Position numbers and translations under genes: made by a program
NCBI RefSeq assembly: GCF_050320075.1
Contig: NZ_CP190018.1
Source of the DNA: Escherichia coli
Lineage (GTDB): Bacteria; Pseudomonadota; Gammaproteobacteria; Enterobacterales; Enterobacteriaceae
DNA: 64,000 nucleotides
Strand: one strand, 5' to 3'
Shown here: positions 60,347-63,823 of the stretch, piece after piece
Layout of the letters: the number at the start of each line of letters is the position of its first letter
Numbering within the stretch: the first letter of the stretch is position 1
The notes under the pieces: generated by a model
What the model was told of the DNA's origin: nothing
Database searches by the model: none
What the model saw: the letters and a program-made list of their open reading frames with translations, nothing else

Positions 60347-61540
60347 CTAAAGCGCACCGGCCTTCTGGCGTGCGGTAACAAAGGTCAGTACGCCAGCGCA
60401 AAGGAGCAGCACGCTACTCATAGCAAACGTGCTCTGCCAGCCAAGGCGGTCAAACACAATGCCTCCTGCCGTTGATCCAAGGGCGATGGCGAGCTGAATC
60501 ACCGCGACCATGAGCCCGCCTCCAGCTTCGGCGTTGTCAGGCAACGTACGCGCAATCCATGTCCACCATCCGGTTGGCGCGGCGGTGGCCAGCATGCCCC
60601 AGAGTCCTAACAGCAGCGAGACCGTCCAGACGTGATGCCCGGTAAGCATCAGACCGATGGCAATGACGGCCATCAGTCCGGGTATGGCCATCAGCGTGGG
60701 GTAGAATTTTCTGTTGAGAAATGCCGAAACAACCAGCGTGCCAATAAAACCGGCCACGCCGATAATCAGCAAAATCGACGACAAGCCTAAGGAATTAACC
60801 CGTGTCACCGACTCCAGAAACGGGCGCACATAGGTGAATAGCGCAAACTGCCCCATGAAAAACAGGCCACAAGCTATCATGCCGACCACAACCATGCGGC
60901 GGCTAAATAAGCGGAATACCGCGCCACATGAAGTGTGGCTTTTATTCGCATCCATGCTTGGCAGGCTGATGCACTGCCAGATAAAGGCGACAACCGCGAT
61001 GGGCACCAGGCACAAGAAAGCGCCTCGCCATCCGACCGTAGCCCCCAGATAGCTTCCCAGCGGTGCGGCCACGACCGTCGCCAGCGCATTACCGGCGTTG
61101 AAAATTGCCAGCGCACGCGTGACCTGATGCTGCGGCACCAGACGAATCGCCGTTGCCGCTGACATCGACCAGAATCCGCCAATAGCCACACCAATCATCG
61201 CACGACCGACCATATACATCAGATAACTGGAAGCCAGCGCAATAATAAGCCCCGATACGGCCATCAGAACCGTCATCCCCAGCTGCAGGAACTTACGATT
61301 CATCTTTCCAGCTAGCGTTGAAAGCGTCAGGCTGGTCAGAACCGCCAGCGCGCCGGAGATAGCAATCCCCTGCCCTGCCAGCCCCTCCGTCACGCCTAAA
61401 TCGCGGGTAATCGGCGTGAGCAGGCTGACGGGCATAAATTCAGAAGCAATCAGCACAAACACGCACAGGGTCATGGCAAAAATACCGCCCCAGTATGCGC
61501 GCTGATGATGAGGTGATAGTGTTTGGCTTAGTGTCGACAT
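60347..61540 (-). CDS. MFS transporter (397 aa, DHA1/sugar-efflux-like)
   Basis: Twelve-TM-like hydrophobic profile. N-terminus ...GGIFAMTLCVFVLIASEFMPVSLLTPI... is typical of the family. Confidence 0.9.
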   Translation of the reverse strand: MSTLSQTLSPHHQRAYWGGIFAMTLCVFVLIASEFMPVSLLTPITRDLGVTEGLAGQGIAISGALAVLTSLTLSTLAGKMNRKFLQLGMTVLMAVSGLIIALASSYLMYMVGRAMIGVAIGGFWSMSAATAIRLVPQHQVTRALAIFNAGNALATVVAAPLGSYLGATVGWRGAFLCLVPIAVVAFIWQCISLPSMDANKSHTSCGAVFRLFSRRMVVVGMIACGLFFMGQFALFTYVRPFLESVTRVNSLGLSSILLIIGVAGFIGTLVVSAFLNRKFYPTLMAIPGLMAVIAIGLMLTGHHVWTVSLLLGLWGMLATAAPTGWWTWIARTLPDNAEAGGGLMVAVIQLAIALGSTAGGIVFDRLGWQSTFAMSSVLLLCAGVLTFVTARQKAGAL

Positions 61541-61566
61541 AGTGAAATTTCACAAAGATCAGGATA

Positions 61567-61595
61567 AAAGCCACCAGCCTATGGCCGGTGGCTTT
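61567..61595 (-). terminator. Hairpin with U-tract between the hydrolase and MFS genes
   Basis: A 13-bp stem with one mismatch (AAAGCCACCAGCC/GGCCGGTGGCTTT). On the minus strand it is followed by UAUCCU. Confidence 0.5.
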
Positions 61596-61615
61596 GCATC
61601 AATTCAGGAGAGGTT

Positions 61616-62752
61616 TTATTTCAGTTTGGTCTGGAAAAATTGTTCGAACTTCGCGAAAGGTATTTTTCCGGCCACGTTATCGTACAGGTCCACGTGATTT
61701 GCCCCTGGTACCACCACCAACTCTTTGTCTTTACTGCCAACCGCCTTGTAAGCATCTTCAGCAAAATAGCGTGAATGTGCTTTCTCACCGGTCACAATCA
61801 GCGTCGGAATGGTGATTTCACTGGCGTAGCTCAACAGCGGCATATTCATAAATGACAGCGGCATCGTTGCCGTCCACGCCCCGGTAGAGTTAACGGAACG
61901 TTCGTGGAAGCCGCGCGGCATGCGATAGTAGTCAAAGAACTCTTTCAGTACCGGATGAGGATTTGCCGGCAGCGTTTCTGGCAGAATGCGCTCGCCCGCA
62001 CTGACCTTGCCGTTGCTGTCGACATTAATATCATGACCACCGTGAGCGAACGTTCCGCTCTGCGCATCCTTCCAGCGCTGTTCATTCAGATATTGCAGAA
62101 CAGCACGACGGTCGGCGGTAGAATAACGGTCTTTGCCATCCCCCACACCATGGCCCATCGCCCGGCTCATGTCATACATCACGCTGGTAGCTACCGCTTT
62201 AACGCGGGTATCCATCGCCGCGTCGTTCAGCGCCATGCCGCCCCAGCCACAAATACCGAGCAGCCCGATACGGTTGCGATCTACCTCTTTTTGCAGCCCT
62301 AAGAAATCCACTGCCGCGCTGAAATCTTCAGTGTTGATATCCGGTGAGGCGACGTTTCGCGGATAGCCGCCGCTTTCCCCGGTGTAAGAAGGATCGAACG
62401 CCAGGGTAACAAACCCTCGTTCCGCCAGCGTCTGCGCATACAGGCCGCTGGATTGCTCTTTCACCGCGCCAAATGGCCCACTGACCGCAATCGCCGCCAG
62501 CTTGCGATCGCCACGGTCTTTAGGCAGGTAAAGATCGCCCACTAAGGTGATGCCATATCGGTTCGGGAACGAGACTTTACGGTGATCGACTTTCTGGCTC
62601 TCGGCGAACGTTTTATCCCATTTATCTGTCATGGACACAGGGGCATTAGGATTGGTTGAATCAGCATAACTCATTGTCGTGACTCCACTTAATGATGCGA
62701 AAAGCAGCATGGTCGGCATCGCGGTTTTTAGCGTGCGGGTGAAGGCTTTCAT
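61616..62752 (-). CDS. Exported alpha/beta hydrolase with a Cys nucleophile elbow (378 aa), paralogue of 42414-43334
   Basis: Signal peptide MKAFTRTLKTAMPTMLLFASLSGVTTMSYA. Motifs IGLLGICGWGGMA and GANHVDLY. Confidence 0.8.
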   Translation of the reverse strand: MKAFTRTLKTAMPTMLLFASLSGVTTMSYADSTNPNAPVSMTDKWDKTFAESQKVDHRKVSFPNRYGITLVGDLYLPKDRGDRKLAAIAVSGPFGAVKEQSSGLYAQTLAERGFVTLAFDPSYTGESGGYPRNVASPDINTEDFSAAVDFLGLQKEVDRNRIGLLGICGWGGMALNDAAMDTRVKAVATSVMYDMSRAMGHGVGDGKDRYSTADRRAVLQYLNEQRWKDAQSGTFAHGGHDINVDSNGKVSAGERILPETLPANPHPVLKEFFDYYRMPRGFHERSVNSTGAWTATMPLSFMNMPLLSYASEITIPTLIVTGEKAHSRYFAEDAYKAVGSKDKELVVVPGANHVDLYDNVAGKIPFAKFEQFFQTKLK

Positions 62753-62938
62753 AAAAATCCCCATAAAAAACAACAGAGAGATACAGGTTTCCGACGGACA
62801 ACGCTGCGGTGCTTTACTTTGATGGGGTCATTATAGTGAGCAGAATTAGTGCTGATTAGGGGGCGATTAATGCTAAGATTAATACCATATTGTTATAAAT
62901 TAATGTGGAGATTGCCGGCATGAAGGGGGGATGTTTCA

Positions 62939-63823
62939 ATGGCGAAAAGGGAGAACTACAACGAGCTGTACCTGTTTATGCAGGTGGTGCGGGAAGGCAG
63001 CTTTACCGCAGCGGCTCAGCGGCTGGGTCTTGCTCAGTCAGGAGTCAGCCGTTCTGTTCGCGAGCTTGAAGAAAGGCTGGGTGTCCAGCTGCTAGTGCGC
63101 ACCACGCGTAAACTGTCGCTGACACAAGCAGGCGAGCAGCTCTACCAGAAGACGGCATCTGGATTTGAAATGTTAGATCTTGGGCTTGCCACGCTGGCGC
63201 ATTATCGAGAGACGCCCTCCGGCACGGTGCGTATCAATGCCAGCCAGCACGCGATTGATAAATGCCTGCTGCCAAAGCTGGCGGTATTTAAACAGAGATA
63301 TCCTGATATCCGGCTTGAACTGATAAATGAGAGCCGGTTCGTCGATATCATCGAGGAAAGATTCGATGCAGGTGTCCGCCTGGGGCCTGAAGTCGGCCAG
63401 GGTATGGTCGCGGTACGCATCACGCCCGATATGGAGATGGCAATTGTGGGGACTCCGGAACATTTTCGTCGCTATGGTTTTCCGCAAACCCCGGCGGATT
63501 TAAAGGCGCATCCCTGTATCGCCTATCAGTTTGCCGACGGCAGCGTATACCAGTGGGAACTCAATCAGGATGATAAAAAAATCACTCATCGCCCTGAAGG
63601 GCAATGGGCCCTATCCGACAGCTATATGGAAGCAGAAGCCGCCCGGCTGGGCCTCGGATTGGCCTATGTTCCTGTTGAACTGGTCGCGGATGATTTAGAA
63701 CACGGTAAGCTTATCAGGGTGTTGCAGCGTTACAGCCTGCGAATGGAGGGATTGTTTCTCTATTACCCTCATCGCAACGTCTCCCCCGCCCTGCGGATGG
63801 TCATTGATACATTGAAAATCTGA
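62939..63823 (+). CDS. LysR-family regulator (294 aa), divergent from the hydrolase-MFS pair
   Basis: HTH FMQVVREGSFTAAAQRLGLAQSGVSRSVRELEERL. Confidence 0.9.
   Translation: MAKRENYNELYLFMQVVREGSFTAAAQRLGLAQSGVSRSVRELEERLGVQLLVRTTRKLSLTQAGEQLYQKTASGFEMLDLGLATLAHYRETPSGTVRINASQHAIDKCLLPKLAVFKQRYPDIRLELINESRFVDIIEERFDAGVRLGPEVGQGMVAVRITPDMEMAIVGTPEHFRRYGFPQTPADLKAHPCIAYQFADGSVYQWELNQDDKKITHRPEGQWALSDSYMEAEAARLGLGLAYVPVELVADDLEHGKLIRVLQRYSLRMEGLFLYYPHRNVSPALRMVIDTLKI

What the first reader, a model, noticed from the sequence alone, without database searches (positions are those of the whole stretch)
60347..63823. LysR - exported Cys-hydrolase - MFS module, with a cytoplasmic paralogue of the hydrolase 19 kb away
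The 378-aa hydrolase has a cleavable signal peptide (…LSGVTTMSYA|DS) and the nucleophile elbow GICGWGG.

The 306-aa enzyme at 42414-43334 shares the family pattern (SGGEPRYLEDP/SGGYPRNVASP; IGVLGICGGGGYA/IGLLGICGWGGMA; HYDLY/HVDLY) but lacks a signal peptide. A Cys in place of the usual Ser is the hallmark of dienelactone-hydrolase-type enzymes.

Each paralogue sits divergent to its own LysR regulator. The 62753-62938 spacer contains ATTAAT-gctaag-ATTAAT (62866-62883), a possible LysR box.

One periplasmic and one cytoplasmic copy, plus an MFS pump, suggests a compartment-split handling of the same class of ester or lactone compounds. I know of no characterised function.
Basis: partly seen in the sequence, partly recalled or inferred. 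Interest (0 to 1): 0.5.

Follow-up and report, generated by a model that had tools for sequence, protein, structure and literature searches.

The report
LysR-controlled exported cysteine hydrolase with pump
This is a real three-gene accessory cassette of E. coli (a LysR regulator, an exported alpha/beta-hydrolase that uses cysteine instead of serine, and an MFS efflux-type pump) from a widespread family whose structure is solved but whose function is unknown; nothing shows that it works together with its distant cytoplasmic paralogue 19 kb away.

Summary
The window is E. coli chromosome.

- **Genes.** 60347-63823 encodes an MFS transporter (397 aa), a 378-aa alpha/beta-hydrolase and a divergent LysR regulator.
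- **Paralogue.** The 306-aa protein at 42414-43334 is a true but ancient paralogue (33% identity, E 1e-35).
- **Catalytic residues.** Cys168 sits on the strand-turn-helix nucleophile elbow and aligns with the catalytic Ser of related esterases. His353 is invariant. The acid partner is unresolved.
- **Signal peptide.** RefSeq's 352-aa call omits it. It is supported by conserved N-terminal coding, a conserved Shine-Dalgarno, and Sec, lipoprotein or Tat signals on distant homologues.
- **Family.** Both hydrolases belong to the uncharacterised PA2218/YcjY family (PDB 2HDW, 5XB6), not clearly to dienelactone hydrolases.
- **Cassette.** The LysR-hydrolase-MFS trio travels as a unit across gamma-, beta- and alpha-proteobacteria. 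It is in 17% of complete E. coli genomes.
- **LysR box.** Only half of the proposed ATTAAT-N6-ATTAAT box is conserved. A better operator is the dyad at 62879-62898, about -65 from a conserved TATAAT.
- **Coupling.** "Compartment-split handling" with the paralogue has no support.
- **Likely function (inferred).** An inducible periplasmic detoxification and efflux module for a small polar carbonyl compound.

This is an ordinary, generically annotated accessory locus of unknown substrate, of moderate to low interest.

The parts
62939..63823 (+). LysR-type transcriptional regulator (LysR1, 294 aa), divergent from the hydrolase
   Evidence: Pfam HTH_1 (E 1.4e-23) and LysR_substrate (E 4.7e-35). 41% identical to E. 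coli PgrR, the LysR regulator divergent from ycjY. Found next to the hydrolase in nearly all proteobacterial orthologous loci.
62879..62898 (-). Conserved imperfect dyad TTATAACAAT|ATGGTATTAA; candidate LysR recognition site, centred about 65 nt upstream of the inferred transcription start
   Evidence: It is the most conserved block in a MAFFT alignment of 42 orthologous LysR-hydrolase spacers; sequence verified. The position relative to the -10 element is an inference; no binding data exist.
62866..62883 (.).
   Evidence: One match in the window against 0.27 expected by chance with up to 1 mismatch. The copy at 62866-62871 varies among orthologues (GCAGTAAT, GCAATTTT and others).
62830..62858 (-). 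Putative core promoter of the hydrolase: TAATCA (62853-62858), 17-nt spacer containing the dyad AGCA-N7-TGCT, then TATAAT (62830-62835)
   Evidence: CTAATCAGCAC...TGCT..CTATAAT is conserved across Enterobacterales, Aeromonas and Acinetobacter spacers. The -35-like hexamer is too weak for the consensus scanner. No transcription start data exist.
62782..62815 (-). Conserved roughly 35-nt block in the 5' leader (AAAGCACCGCAGCGTTGTCCGTCGGAAACCTGTA); role unknown
   Evidence: Conserved in most long-leader enterobacterial orthologues and absent from Leclercia/Enterobacter. No Rfam match. Only a weak consensus fold, -4 kcal/mol.
62758..62762 (-). Shine-Dalgarno GGGGA, 5 nt upstream of ATG 62752
   Evidence: (A)GGGGA is conserved at this spacing in orthologues; verified.
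62663..62752 (-). Sec-type signal peptide, residues 1-30, predicted cleavage SYA|DS
   Evidence: n/h/c features. Conservation with in-frame indels. Distant subfamily members carry Sec, lipoprotein (…AGC) or twin-arginine (RRNLMK/RRxLLK) signals. The AlphaFold N-terminus (residues 1-48) is disordered.
61616..62752 (-). Exported alpha/beta-hydrolase HYD1 (378 aa) of the PA2218/YcjY family. Cys168 (62249-62251), Glu323 (61784-61786) and His353 (61694-61696); a single Cys in the whole protein
   Evidence: E 8e-125 to PDB 2HDW (PA2218) and 4.7e-44 to 5XB6 (YcjY). Cys present in 92 of 92 subfamily representatives in which the motif was found. Family-invariant residues. Secondary-structure topology. 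Fold search. Codons verified.
61563..61600 (-). Intrinsic terminator or attenuator hairpin (13-bp stem, loop AUA, U-tract) between the hydrolase and the MFS gene
   Evidence: The minimum-free-energy fold of the 78-nt region spanning the hydrolase stop and the spacer is -28.6 kcal/mol, and this hairpin is its main element. Also detected by the consensus scan. A GC-rich hairpin at the same place, with different sequences, is present in essentially all orthologous loci examined.
60347..61540 (-). MFS transporter (397 aa), DHA1-like, closest to NepI and sugar or chloramphenicol efflux pumps
   Evidence: Pfam MFS_1, E 1.8e-36. NCBIfam NepI scores 289.7 bits, below the 584 cut-off; PRK03545 and Cmx/CmrA also hit. 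Residues before the PGAP start (Met23) are conserved in a Pseudomonas orthologue (AHWSAVYAMTLCVF versus AYWGGIFAMTLCVF), which supports the 61540 start.
42414..43334 (+). Cytoplasmic paralogue HYD2 (306 aa), YcjY-type; Cys113, Asp248, His281
   Evidence: 33% identical to HYD1. E 4.3e-67 to YcjY 5XB6. In-frame stop 11 codons upstream of its ATG. Orthologues are 75-82% identical across several phyla.
41331..42320 (-). LysR regulator (LysR2) divergent from HYD2. PGAP starts it at 42257.
   Evidence: Pfam; annotation in strain 746. 29% identical to LysR1 and 31% to PgrR.
43508..44650 (+). Old-yellow-enzyme type NADH:flavin oxidoreductase downstream of HYD2
   Evidence: Pfam Oxidored_FMN, E 6e-78. 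In other phyla, HYD2 orthologues are instead paired with NmrA-type NAD(P)H-binding reductases.

Best explanation
The locus is a self-contained accessory cassette of three genes.

**Anatomy.** A LysR-type regulator (62939-63823) is read divergently from a promoter region. That region carries a conserved dyad about 65 nt upstream of a conserved TATAAT. The regulator most likely activates the hydrolase gene and auto-represses its own gene, as LysR regulators usually do (inferred).

**The enzyme.** The hydrolase is made with a Sec signal peptide and works in the periplasm (shown by comparative evidence, not by experiment). It is an alpha/beta-hydrolase of the uncharacterised PA2218/YcjY family. 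The usual serine nucleophile is replaced by Cys168, with His353 as the base. The acid partner is uncertain. Many invariant polar and arginine residues line the family's active site, which points to a small polar, probably anionic, acyl substrate rather than bulk lipid (inferred).

**The pump.** A conserved terminator hairpin separates the hydrolase from a DHA1-type MFS transporter. The transporter is therefore probably expressed at a lower level by read-through (inferred).

**Most likely role (inferred, not shown).** An inducible clearance system for an exogenous carbonyl-containing ester, lactone, thioester or amide. The regulator senses the compound or its product. The periplasmic enzyme cleaves it before it enters the cell. 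The pump expels what leaks in.

**Relation to the paralogue.** The cytoplasmic paralogue at 42414-43334 is a separate, anciently diverged module of the same enzyme family, paired with reductases. It is not a demonstrated partner.
For: **Anatomy.**

**Family assignment and Cys nucleophile.**

**Export.**
- The N-terminal peptide and Shine-Dalgarno are conserved.
- Distant homologues carry Sec, lipoprotein or Tat signals.

**Cassette behaviour.**
- LysR, hydrolase and MFS co-occur in Enterobacterales, Aeromonas, Gilliamella, Acinetobacter, Psychrobacter, Undibacterium, Sphingopyxis, Microvirga and Pseudomonas, with varying gene order.
- The flanking genes differ between hosts: paoD and an AbiE island in E. 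coli, AKR genes in Citrobacter amalonaticus, and LysE plus AraC/SDR genes in another host.
- The cassette is present in only 912 of 5426 complete E. coli genomes. It is absent from K-12 but present in O157 Sakai.

**Regulatory elements.** Conserved operator, promoter and terminator.

**Detoxification flavour.**
- Orthologues in other phyla sit among AKR, SDR, Zn-ADH, cupin, CMD, hexapeptide acetyltransferase, metallo-beta-lactamase-fold and cyclophilin-like genes.
- HYD2 orthologues pair with NAD(P)H reductases.
- The MFS resembles efflux pumps (NepI, Cmx/CmrA).
Against: - No substrate, inducer or phenotype is known. No paper mentions the O157 locus tags, and PA2218 was still uncharacterised when cited.
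- RefSeq annotates a 352-aa form without a signal peptide, and a GGAG lies 8 nt upstream of that ATG. SignalP was not run.
- A lone reactive Cys in the oxidising periplasm is unusual for an esterase.
- MFS direction of transport cannot be read from sequence. The pump could import the hydrolysis product.
- The gene-neighbourhood argument for detoxification is soft. These gene families are common and their enrichment was not tested statistically.
- The AlphaFold model is only moderately confident (mean pLDDT 61.7; cap region below 50).
Confidence: 0.45

Rival explanations
1. The periplasmic HYD1 and the cytoplasmic HYD2 form one compartment-split system acting on the same class of esters or lactones, with the MFS shuttling compound between compartments.
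For: Both enzymes share the family's invariant residues (KEQ98-100, D120, S122, S127, R132, D143, D149, C168, R183, Q225-R226, Y276, R280, H353, Y357, D358), so related chemistry is plausible. In Citrobacter amalonaticus and Atlantibacter, the AKR pair that flanks the HYD2 island in E. coli lies next to the HYD1 cassette.
Against: Identity is only 33%, and each enzyme belongs to a separate, widely distributed subfamily. The two occur in different numbers of E. coli genomes, 912 versus 1782 of 5426. Outside E. coli, HYD1 travels with LysR and MFS and without HYD2, and HYD2 travels with a reductase and without HYD1. E. coli also has a third paralogue, YcjY, with its own LysR regulator.
Confidence: 0.1
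2. A catabolic module. The periplasmic hydrolase releases a usable product from an ester or amide conjugate, and the MFS imports it. The LysR regulator induces both in response to the product.
For: LysR regulators commonly control catabolic operons. The hydrolase-MFS pairing is conserved. MFS direction cannot be determined from sequence.
Against: The nearest transporter families are exporters: NepI, the sugar efflux family PRK03545 and Cmx/CmrA. No downstream catabolic enzymes are conserved in the cassette.
Confidence: 0.15
3. A peptidoglycan-peptide processing enzyme, by analogy with YcjY. YcjY lies in the PgrR-repressed ycjY-ymjD-ymjC-mpaA operon for murein peptide recycling.
For: LysR1 is 41% identical to PgrR. 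ycjY is divergent from pgrR and co-operonic with mpaA. ycjY over-expression causes filamentation. HYD2's best Pfam hit is Peptidase_S15. The invariant arginines could bind peptide carboxylates. Other periplasmic enzymes acting on peptidoglycan, the L,D-transpeptidases, also use a Cys nucleophile (my own knowledge).
Against: YcjY itself has no demonstrated activity. No murein-related genes are linked to HYD1 in any locus examined. The MFS is NepI-like and is not named as AmpG-type in the family scans.
Confidence: 0.12
4. A quorum-quenching N-acyl-homoserine-lactone lactonase.
For: The best NCBIfam hit for both hydrolases is the UilS lactonase family (E 2e-18 and 8e-21). UilS was annotated as a dienelactone hydrolase.
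Against: Scores of 67 and 75 bits are far below the 400-bit family cut-off. UilS is cytoplasmic.
Confidence: 0.05
5. The RefSeq gene model is right. The hydrolase starts at 62674 (352 aa), has no signal peptide and is cytoplasmic. The upstream 26 codons are untranslated leader.
For: PGAP annotation in strain 746 and in Sakai. GGAG lies 8 nt upstream of that ATG. Some database entries are 352 aa.
Against: Most clusters are called at 378 aa, including the 1998-member E. coli cluster. The upstream peptide is conserved with in-frame indels and no stops. The GGGGA Shine-Dalgarno is conserved before ATG 62752. Distant homologues carry Sec, lipoprotein and Tat signals at the same place.
Confidence: 0.07

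Closest known systems
PA2218 of Pseudomonas aeruginosa (PDB 2HDW) and the exported branch of its family
   Same: Full-length similarity to HYD1, E 8e-125. The Foldseek alignment gives 58% identity. The GICGWGG, VKEQ, FDPSYTGESGG, HVDLYD and HGE-AHSRYF motifs are identical. It also has an N-terminal extension before the catalytic domain.
   Different: It is a structural-genomics entry with no assigned function, so it gives the family but not the activity.
E. coli YcjY (PDB 5XB6) with its divergent LysR regulator PgrR
   Same: Same family. It is closest to HYD2 (E 4.3e-67). It has the GIC-x-G-x-G elbow and the H-x-DLYD motif, and the same divergent LysR arrangement. LysR1 is 41% identical to PgrR.
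   Different: YcjY is cytoplasmic, a K-12 gene, and co-operonic with mpaA (murein peptide amidase) rather than with an MFS or a reductase. It has Ser where HYD1 and HYD2 have Glu and Asp after strand beta7. Its function is also unproven.
Dienelactone hydrolase (ClcD type, Pfam PF01738)
   Same: It is an alpha/beta-hydrolase with a Cys nucleophile in a G-x-C-x-G elbow, arginines that bind a carboxylate substrate and a Glu after strand beta3 (these DLH details are my own recollection of the literature, not tested here). HYD1 has the invariant KEQ98-100 motif at the equivalent place. Weak DLH Pfam hits occur in 32 of 33 family members.
   Different: The DLH model scores no better than PETase, Hydrolase_4, Peptidase_S9 or Peptidase_S15. 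HYD1 carries a roughly 120-residue cap insertion (about residues 190-315). The top 50 Foldseek matches are dominated by PA2218, YcjY, DcsB, GrgF, PET46, monoglyceride lipases, feruloyl esterases and acetyl-xylan esterases. The only entry among them called a dienelactone hydrolase by its depositors is the metagenomic 7QJN.
Serine esterases and thioesterases PET46 (8B4U), MHETase MHT043-5 (9PJB), DcsB (7D78/7D79) and GrgF (6LZH)
   Same: They are the nearest characterised relatives by sequence (E 1e-10 to 1.7e-7) and by fold. DcsB shares the VKE motif after beta3.
   Different: PET46, the MHETase and DcsB have Ser where this family has Cys. GrgF's nucleophile was not checked here. Identity is only about 20%, and their biological contexts differ (polyester hydrolysis, fungal polyketide release).
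LysR regulator plus MFS efflux detoxification units, such as AaeR-AaeXAB of E. coli (my own knowledge)
   Same: A divergent LysR-type regulator controls export functions. The AaeR model is among the LysR1 hits (113 bits).
   Different: AaeAB is a different type of pump and has no periplasmic hydrolase. This is a resemblance of logic only.

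Membership tests
alpha/beta-hydrolase fold superfamily | Nucleophile on a sharp strand-turn-helix elbow (small-x-Nu-x-small-small) | tested here: met
   G166-I-C168-G-W-G171-G. Strand 157-167 and helix 170-180 in the AlphaFold model, with pLDDT 85-90 in that block. The Cys aligns to the Ser of GLSMGG/GMSFGG in PET46, MHETase and DcsB.
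alpha/beta-hydrolase fold superfamily | Catalytic His in the loop after strand beta8 | tested here: met
   His353 follows strand 343-348. It is invariant in 40 of 40 family members and aligns with the His of the GGDHV motif of PET46.
alpha/beta-hydrolase fold superfamily | Acidic triad residue after strand beta7 | tested here: inconclusive
   At G+3, where PET46 has Asp, HYD1 has Ala325 and HYD2 has Val250. G+1 is Glu323/Asp248 and is acidic in 37 of 40 members, but is Ser in YcjY. Asp/Glu355 (40 of 40) and Asp358 (39 of 40) are alternatives.
PA2218/YcjY family of uncharacterised hydrolases (PDB 2HDW, 5XB6) | Significant full-length sequence similarity to the solved members | tested here: met
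   HYD1 against 2HDW, E 8e-125. HYD2 against 5XB6, E 4.3e-67. The cross-hits are E 4.7e-44 and 5.9e-44. Foldseek ranks 1-4.
PA2218/YcjY family of uncharacterised hydrolases (PDB 2HDW, 5XB6) | Family-invariant motifs (P-x-G-x-x-KEQ; FD-x-S-x-x-G-x-SGG-x-PR; G-x-C-x-x-G; H-x-D-L-Y-D) | tested here: met
   All are present in HYD1 and HYD2. Columns are conserved at 93% or more in a 40-sequence alignment. Cys found in 92 of 92 representatives in which the motif was detected.
Dienelactone hydrolase family (Pfam PF01738) | Match to the family model clearly above the gathering score, over the domain | tested here: inconclusive
   HYD1 scores 21.1 bits against a cut-off of 21, with only residues 146-195 aligned. 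HYD2 scores 25.0 bits, covering profile positions 12-123 of 217. Other clan families score higher.
Dienelactone hydrolase family (Pfam PF01738) | Cys nucleophile | tested here: met
   Cys168 and Cys113.
Dienelactone hydrolase family (Pfam PF01738) | Hydrolysis of dienelactone to maleylacetate | not testable with these tools
   This needs an enzyme assay.
UilS family AHL lactonase (NCBIfam NF047920) | Score at or above the 400-bit equivalog cut-off | tested here: not met
   67.1 bits (HYD1) and 75.0 bits (HYD2).
LysR-type transcriptional regulators | N-terminal HTH_1 domain plus C-terminal LysR substrate-binding domain | tested here: met
   for LysR1, LysR2 and LysR3.
LysR-type transcriptional regulators | Divergent target gene with a dyad-symmetric box near -65 | tested here: inconclusive
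   Divergent arrangement confirmed. A conserved dyad at 62879-62898 lies about 65 nt upstream of the start inferred from the conserved TATAAT. It has even-length symmetry rather than the classical T-N11-A form. No binding or transcription-start data exist.
MFS, NepI equivalog (NF007578) | Score at or above the 584-bit cut-off | tested here: not met
   289.7 bits. It is a member of the MFS_1 superfamily (126 bits against a cut-off of 33.4) but not a NepI orthologue.
Sec (signal peptidase I) secretory proteins | Positively charged n-region, hydrophobic h-region, small residues at -3 and -1 | tested here: met
   Net +3 charge. MLLFASLSGV has mean Kyte-Doolittle 2.0. S-Y-A|D. A dedicated predictor (SignalP) and an export experiment were not available.

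The most novel reading that the evidence does not exclude
The PA2218/YcjY proteins may be a large, unrecognised class of cysteine-nucleophile alpha/beta-hydrolases with a specific small anionic substrate. The exported branch, with a dedicated LysR sensor and an MFS pump, could be a new periplasmic inactivation-plus-efflux resistance mechanism against a natural electrophilic lactone, ester or amide toxin. Alternatively it could be a new periplasmic peptidoglycan-peptide hydrolase. On this reading E. coli carries up to three regulator-enzyme pairs of this class (PgrR-YcjY, LysR2-HYD2 and LysR1-HYD1).
Probability: 0.15. Interest if true: 0.6.

Novelty: new member of a known kind. Interest (0 to 1): 0.3.

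Why it matters
**If the inferred role is right.** The cassette would be a compact sense-cleave-expel unit that some E. coli lineages, including O157:H7 Sakai and O55:H7, carry and K-12 lacks. Identifying its substrate would give a function to a family that is found from Proteobacteria to Bacteroidota and Leptospira. It would also cover the long-unassigned E. coli gene ycjY and two solved structures that have no known function.

**Annotation value.**
- The RefSeq 352-aa model of the hydrolase probably removes its signal peptide.
- The RefSeq 375-aa model of the MFS probably removes conserved N-terminal residues.

**Otherwise.** This is an ordinary accessory locus. All three genes are already annotated generically, and nothing about the architecture is unprecedented.

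Tried and rejected
1. **K-12 yagP as a relic of LysR1.** Rejected. YagP is only 28% identical to the LysR1 C-terminus. Sakai carries a full-length yagP as well as the cassette. K-12 therefore simply lacks the cassette.
2. **Riboswitch or known RNA in the conserved 5' leader or spacer.** No Rfam match down to E = 1. The consensus fold is weak.
3. **Literature.** Nothing on the O157 locus tags. PA2218 and 2HDW appear only as an uncharacterised structural neighbour. YcjY appears only as an over-expression filamentation hit and a PgrR target. The DcsB search found nothing, and the GrgF search gave no mechanistic detail.
4. **UilS lactonase membership.** Fails the cut-off.
5. **Plasmid carriage.** The cassette is essentially chromosomal. 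Only 9 weak or mislabelled records among 72,556 plasmids, and 3 plasmid places in E. coli.
6. **Consensus promoter scan of the spacer.** Nothing found, because the -35 element is weak. The promoter was inferred from conservation instead.
7. **AlphaFold model.** With a 33-sequence alignment the core was confident but the cap was poor. It was used only for topology, not for triad geometry.
8. **Genes between the hydrolase and the MFS in Aeromonas and Pseudomonas.** A metallo-beta-lactamase-fold/cyclophilin-like fusion, a cytochrome P460-like protein and a DUF4405 protein. These are suggestive but did not converge on a substrate.

Full report
**Where the window comes from.** The region matches complete E. 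coli chromosomes at 100% identity, for example strain 746 (NZ_CP023353). In that genome the finding lies directly downstream of paoD. It is followed by a truncated ykgR fragment, an AbiE toxin-antitoxin pair and a reverse-transcriptase gene next to tRNA-Thr. RefSeq annotates the three genes only as "MFS transporter", "alpha/beta hydrolase" and "LysR family transcriptional regulator". The 3.8-kb segment is present at 80% coverage or more in 912 of 5426 complete E. coli genomes. O157:H7 Sakai has it as ECs_0309-0311. K-12 does not have it.

**The observation.**
- *Genes.* The ORFs are as described.
- *Paralogy.* The 378-aa hydrolase (HYD1, 61616-62752, minus strand) and the 306-aa protein (HYD2, 42414-43334) align over the whole catalytic domain. 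Identity is 33% and E = 1e-35.
- *Regulators.* Each is divergent from a LysR gene.
- *HYD2 localisation.* HYD2 cannot have an N-terminal signal, because an in-frame TAA lies 11 codons upstream of its ATG.

**The start codon and the signal peptide.** PGAP starts HYD1 at 62674 (352 aa), which deletes the proposed signal peptide. A GGAG does precede that ATG. Three lines of evidence favour ATG 62752.
1. *The upstream peptide is conserved.* Most database clusters, including the 1998-member E. coli cluster, are 378 aa.
   - The first 30 residues keep a basic n-region, a hydrophobic core and the M-S-Y-A motif across Klebsiella, Serratia, Yersinia, Dickeya, Erwinia and Aeromonas, with in-frame three-codon indels.
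   - Among differing codons the synonymous fraction is 0.48 in the first 30 codons, against 0.76 in the rest of the gene. No stop codons occur. I read this as a fast-evolving but translated signal sequence.
2. *The ribosome-binding site is conserved.* A GGGGA-type Shine-Dalgarno sits 5-8 nt upstream of this ATG in the orthologous spacers.
3. *Distant homologues are exported.* Representatives of the same subfamily at 39-60% identity carry N-terminal export signals of three kinds.
   - Sec type: MKFFKSLLIGVFIFSLGGAMAQA.
   - Lipoprotein type: …LALAGC, …MLAAC.
   - Twin-arginine type: …SRRNLMKLT…, …GRRNLLKLTG…. A Pseudomonas orthologue has MGRRNMLKMTG.

The E. coli peptide itself has net +3 charge, an h-region of mean hydropathy 2.0, and Ser/Ala at -3/-1. 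I regard export as well supported. It has not been demonstrated experimentally.

**The enzyme family.** No Pfam model describes these proteins specifically. All 33 members tested hit Hydrolase_4. PETase and DLH are each hit by 32 members and Peptidase_S9 by 30. The best E-values are only 1e-6 to 1e-10.
- *Solved structures.* HYD1 matches "hypothetical protein PA2218" of P. aeruginosa (2HDW, E 8e-125). HYD2 matches E. coli YcjY (5XB6, E 4.3e-67). Each also cross-hits the other structure at about 1e-44. Neither has an assigned function. 2HDW was cited in 2012 as "not yet biochemically characterised".
- *Size of the family.* A search of 1.84 billion representative proteins found 6474 relatives at E ≤ 0.001 and 470 at E ≤ 1e-30.
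- *Spread.* Orthologues of HYD1 occur in Gamma-, Beta- and Alphaproteobacteria, Bacteroidota, Leptospira, Fusobacteria, Melainabacteria and Campylobacterota.
- *HYD2.* Its orthologues are 75-82% identical across Burkholderia, Cupriavidus, Pseudomonas, Stenotrophomonas, Shewanella, Rhodococcus and Mycobacterium.

**The catalytic residues.**
- *Cys.* In the AlphaFold model (pTM 0.70; confident core, poor cap) Cys168 lies between strand 157-167 and helix 170-180, the classical nucleophile elbow. It aligns with the Ser of G-L-S-M-G-G in PET46 and in an MHETase, and of G-M-S-F-G-G in the thioesterase DcsB. It is Cys in all 92 subfamily representatives in which the motif could be located, and in 40 of 40 sequences of a family-wide alignment. 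HYD1 has no other cysteine.
- *His.* His353 follows strand 343-348 and is invariant.
- *Acid.* This is unresolved. PET46 has Asp at the third residue after the beta7 glycine; this family has Ala or Val there. The residue directly after the glycine is Glu323 (HYD1) or Asp248 (HYD2) and is acidic in 37 of 40 sequences, but YcjY has Ser. Asp/Glu355 and Asp358 in the H-x-D-L-Y-D motif are alternatives.
- *Other invariants.* Lys98-Glu99-Gln100 just after beta3, Asp120, Ser122, Ser127, Arg132, Asp143, Asp149, Arg183, Gln225-Arg226, Tyr276, Arg280 and Tyr357. So many invariant polar and basic residues suggest a defined small, probably anionic substrate. This is an inference.

**Relation to dienelactone hydrolases.** Membership is not established.
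- The DLH model only just reaches its cut-off and covers part of the domain.
- HYD1 has a roughly 120-residue cap insertion.
- The best structural matches after PA2218 and YcjY are a Chloroflexus hydrolase, DcsB, GrgF, PET46, monoglyceride lipases, feruloyl esterases and acetyl-xylan esterases.
- The weak similarity to the UilS AHL lactonase family is far below that family's threshold.

**The cassette.** In 80 genomic loci encoding HYD1 orthologues, the LysR gene and the MFS gene accompany the hydrolase in the following groups.

| Group | LysR identity to the window protein | MFS identity to the window protein |
|---|---|---|
| Enterobacterales, many genera (one of the loci has no MFS match in its flank) | 82-98% | 61-94% |
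| Aeromonas and relatives | 74-77% | 44-46% |
| Gilliamella | 78% | 61% |
| Undibacterium | 72% | 59% |
| Psychrobacter | 52% | 61-64% |
| Sphingopyxis, Microvirga, Noviherbaspirillum, Motiliproteus, Pseudomonas sp. (LysR3-like regulator; varying gene order) | 49-58% to LysR3 | 54-64% |

An Acinetobacter locus also has the LysR gene (72-73%), but its contig ends before any MFS gene could appear.
- *Flanks differ between hosts.* paoD and an AbiE island in E. coli, an AKR pair in Citrobacter amalonaticus and Atlantibacter, and LysE plus AraC/SDR genes in another enterobacterium. The three genes therefore behave as one transferable unit.
- *Location.* The unit is chromosomal and is hardly ever on plasmids.
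- *Outside Proteobacteria.* The hydrolase lacks these two partners. It sits among cyclophilin-like (PF18050, four loci, once fused to a metallo-beta-lactamase-fold protein), cupin, CMD, hexapeptide acetyltransferase, SDR, Zn-ADH, AKR and AraC genes.

**Regulatory DNA.** A multiple alignment of 42 orthologous LysR-hydrolase spacers shows three conserved blocks.
1. ATTTATAACAATATGGTATTAATCTTAGCA. It contains the imperfect dyad TTATAACAAT|ATGGTATTAA (62879-62898).
2. CTAATCAGCAC-N-TGCT-N-CTATAAT (62830-62860). This is a weak -35-like TAATCA, a spacer dyad and a perfect TATAAT.
3. A roughly 35-nt block in the transcribed leader (62782-62815) in most genera.

With a start site about 7 nt below the TATAAT, the first dyad is centred near -65, the usual place for a LysR recognition site. 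The downstream copy (62866-62871) is not conserved, and the pattern is not statistically unusual.

Between the hydrolase stop and the MFS start there is a 13-bp GC-rich hairpin followed by a U-tract. The fold of that region is -28.6 kcal/mol. A hairpin at the same position, with different stem sequences, is present in essentially all orthologous loci examined. The MFS ATG follows only about 25 nt after the U-tract in E. coli. The pump is therefore probably expressed by attenuated read-through. This is an inference.

The 397-aa MFS start is supported by conservation of residues upstream of the PGAP start in a Pseudomonas orthologue.

**The paralogue and the "compartment-split" idea.**
- *Local context.* HYD2 lies in an island with two LysR genes, two aldo-keto reductases and an old-yellow-enzyme reductase. 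The island is present in 1782 of 5426 genomes.
- *Conserved partner.* In Paraburkholderia, P. aeruginosa and Rhodococcus, the nearly identical HYD2 orthologue is paired with an NmrA-type NAD(P)H-binding protein under LysR, AraC or other regulators. Its conserved partner is thus a reductase, not HYD1 or an MFS.
- *Third paralogue.* E. coli also has YcjY, divergent from the LysR regulator PgrR and co-operonic with mpaA. LysR1 is closer to PgrR (41%) than to LysR2 (29%).

The picture is an old enzyme family that repeatedly pairs with a LysR regulator. It is not one coordinated two-compartment system. The shared invariant residues leave room for related chemistry.

**Most likely mechanism and its limits.**
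- *Shown.* The gene content. The family. The Cys and His positions. Conservation of the trio, the operator, the promoter and the terminator.
- *Strongly inferred.* Export to the periplasm. Control by the LysR regulator.
- *Weakly inferred.* The role as an inducible clearance module for a small polar carbonyl-containing ester, lactone, thioester or amide, with the MFS acting as an exporter.

The rivals are catabolic uptake, peptidoglycan-peptide processing by analogy with YcjY/PgrR, AHL quenching, and a cytoplasmic 352-aa form. They are listed with their tests.

**Verdict.** The locus is a member of a known, structurally solved but functionally unassigned family, in a common regulatory arrangement, and the proposed link between the two paralogues has no support. 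Interest is moderate to low.

Noticed in passing
window 56458-59205 (+): paoB and paoC are fused into one 915-aa ORF by an internal in-frame deletion. PGAP marks both as partial pseudogenes in the identical strain 746, while Sakai has intact paoB (957 nt) and paoC (2199 nt). The periplasmic aldehyde oxidoreductase PaoABC is therefore probably inactive in this strain.
   Followed up: partly
window 61542-61553 (-), directly before the MFS ATG; orthologous spacers in L013, L019-L023, L027-L029, L035, L046: E. coli and Citrobacter have the perfect palindrome GTGAAATTTCAC abutting the MFS start. Klebsiella-, Hafnia- and Serratia-type loci have a longer spacer with a different conserved palindrome (GTTATTCC-ATGAATAGC). 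This may be a second operator in front of the pump.
   Followed up: partly
window 62782-62815 (-): A conserved roughly 35-nt block in the hydrolase 5' leader. It has no Rfam match and only a weak consensus fold, and is absent from the Leclercia/Enterobacter orthologues, which have a 31-33-nt leader.
   Followed up: partly
L003 37-1949 and L004 34-1946, versus window 38340-40207: The two aldo-keto reductase genes that flank the HYD2 island in E. coli lie about 2 kb from the LysR1-HYD1-MFS cassette in Citrobacter amalonaticus and Atlantibacter (94-96% protein identity). AKR genes also recur near HYD1 orthologues in Belliella, Propionivibrio, Gastranaerophilales, Flavitalea, Helicobacter and Pseudomonas.
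   Followed up: partly
L030 6175-7680; L067 6548-7006; L071 6124-6588; L075 6068-6529; L043 1633-2730: Cyclophilin-like family PF18050 proteins sit immediately downstream of HYD1 orthologues in three distant phyla. In Aeromonas the domain is fused to a membrane-anchored metallo-beta-lactamase-fold protein with an HDHWDH motif. A free metallo-beta-lactamase-fold gene follows the hydrolase in a Fusobacteriaceae contig.
   Followed up: partly
L091-L095 (neighbours of HYD2 orthologues): HYD2 orthologues at 76-81% identity in Paraburkholderia, P. aeruginosa and Rhodococcus are each adjacent to a roughly 210-aa NmrA/NAD_binding_10 protein. E. coli has an old-yellow-enzyme reductase in that position. 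The pairing of hydrolase with an NAD(P)H reductase is conserved while the reductase family changes.
   Followed up: partly
L001 12836-12904 (just beyond the window end) and L002 10923-11024 (window about 45122-45223): A truncated ykgR fragment follows LysR1, while an intact ykgR follows the HYD2 island. This hints at a past rearrangement or insertion between two ykgR copies. Beyond it lie an AbiEi/AbiEii pair and a 1069-aa reverse-transcriptase gene next to tRNA-Thr.
   Followed up: no
L083 5382-5792 (K-12 yagP) and L085 5658-6557 (Sakai yagP): K-12 yagP is a C-terminal fragment of a different LysR regulator that is full length in Sakai. K-12 lacks the whole stretch from the MFS gene to the 5' part of yagP next to prophage CP4-6.
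   Followed up: yes
window 60347-61540 and 61616-62752: The RefSeq gene models for both the MFS (375 aa, start 61474) and the hydrolase (352 aa, start 62674) appear to be N-terminally truncated relative to the conserved coding sequence.
   Followed up: yes
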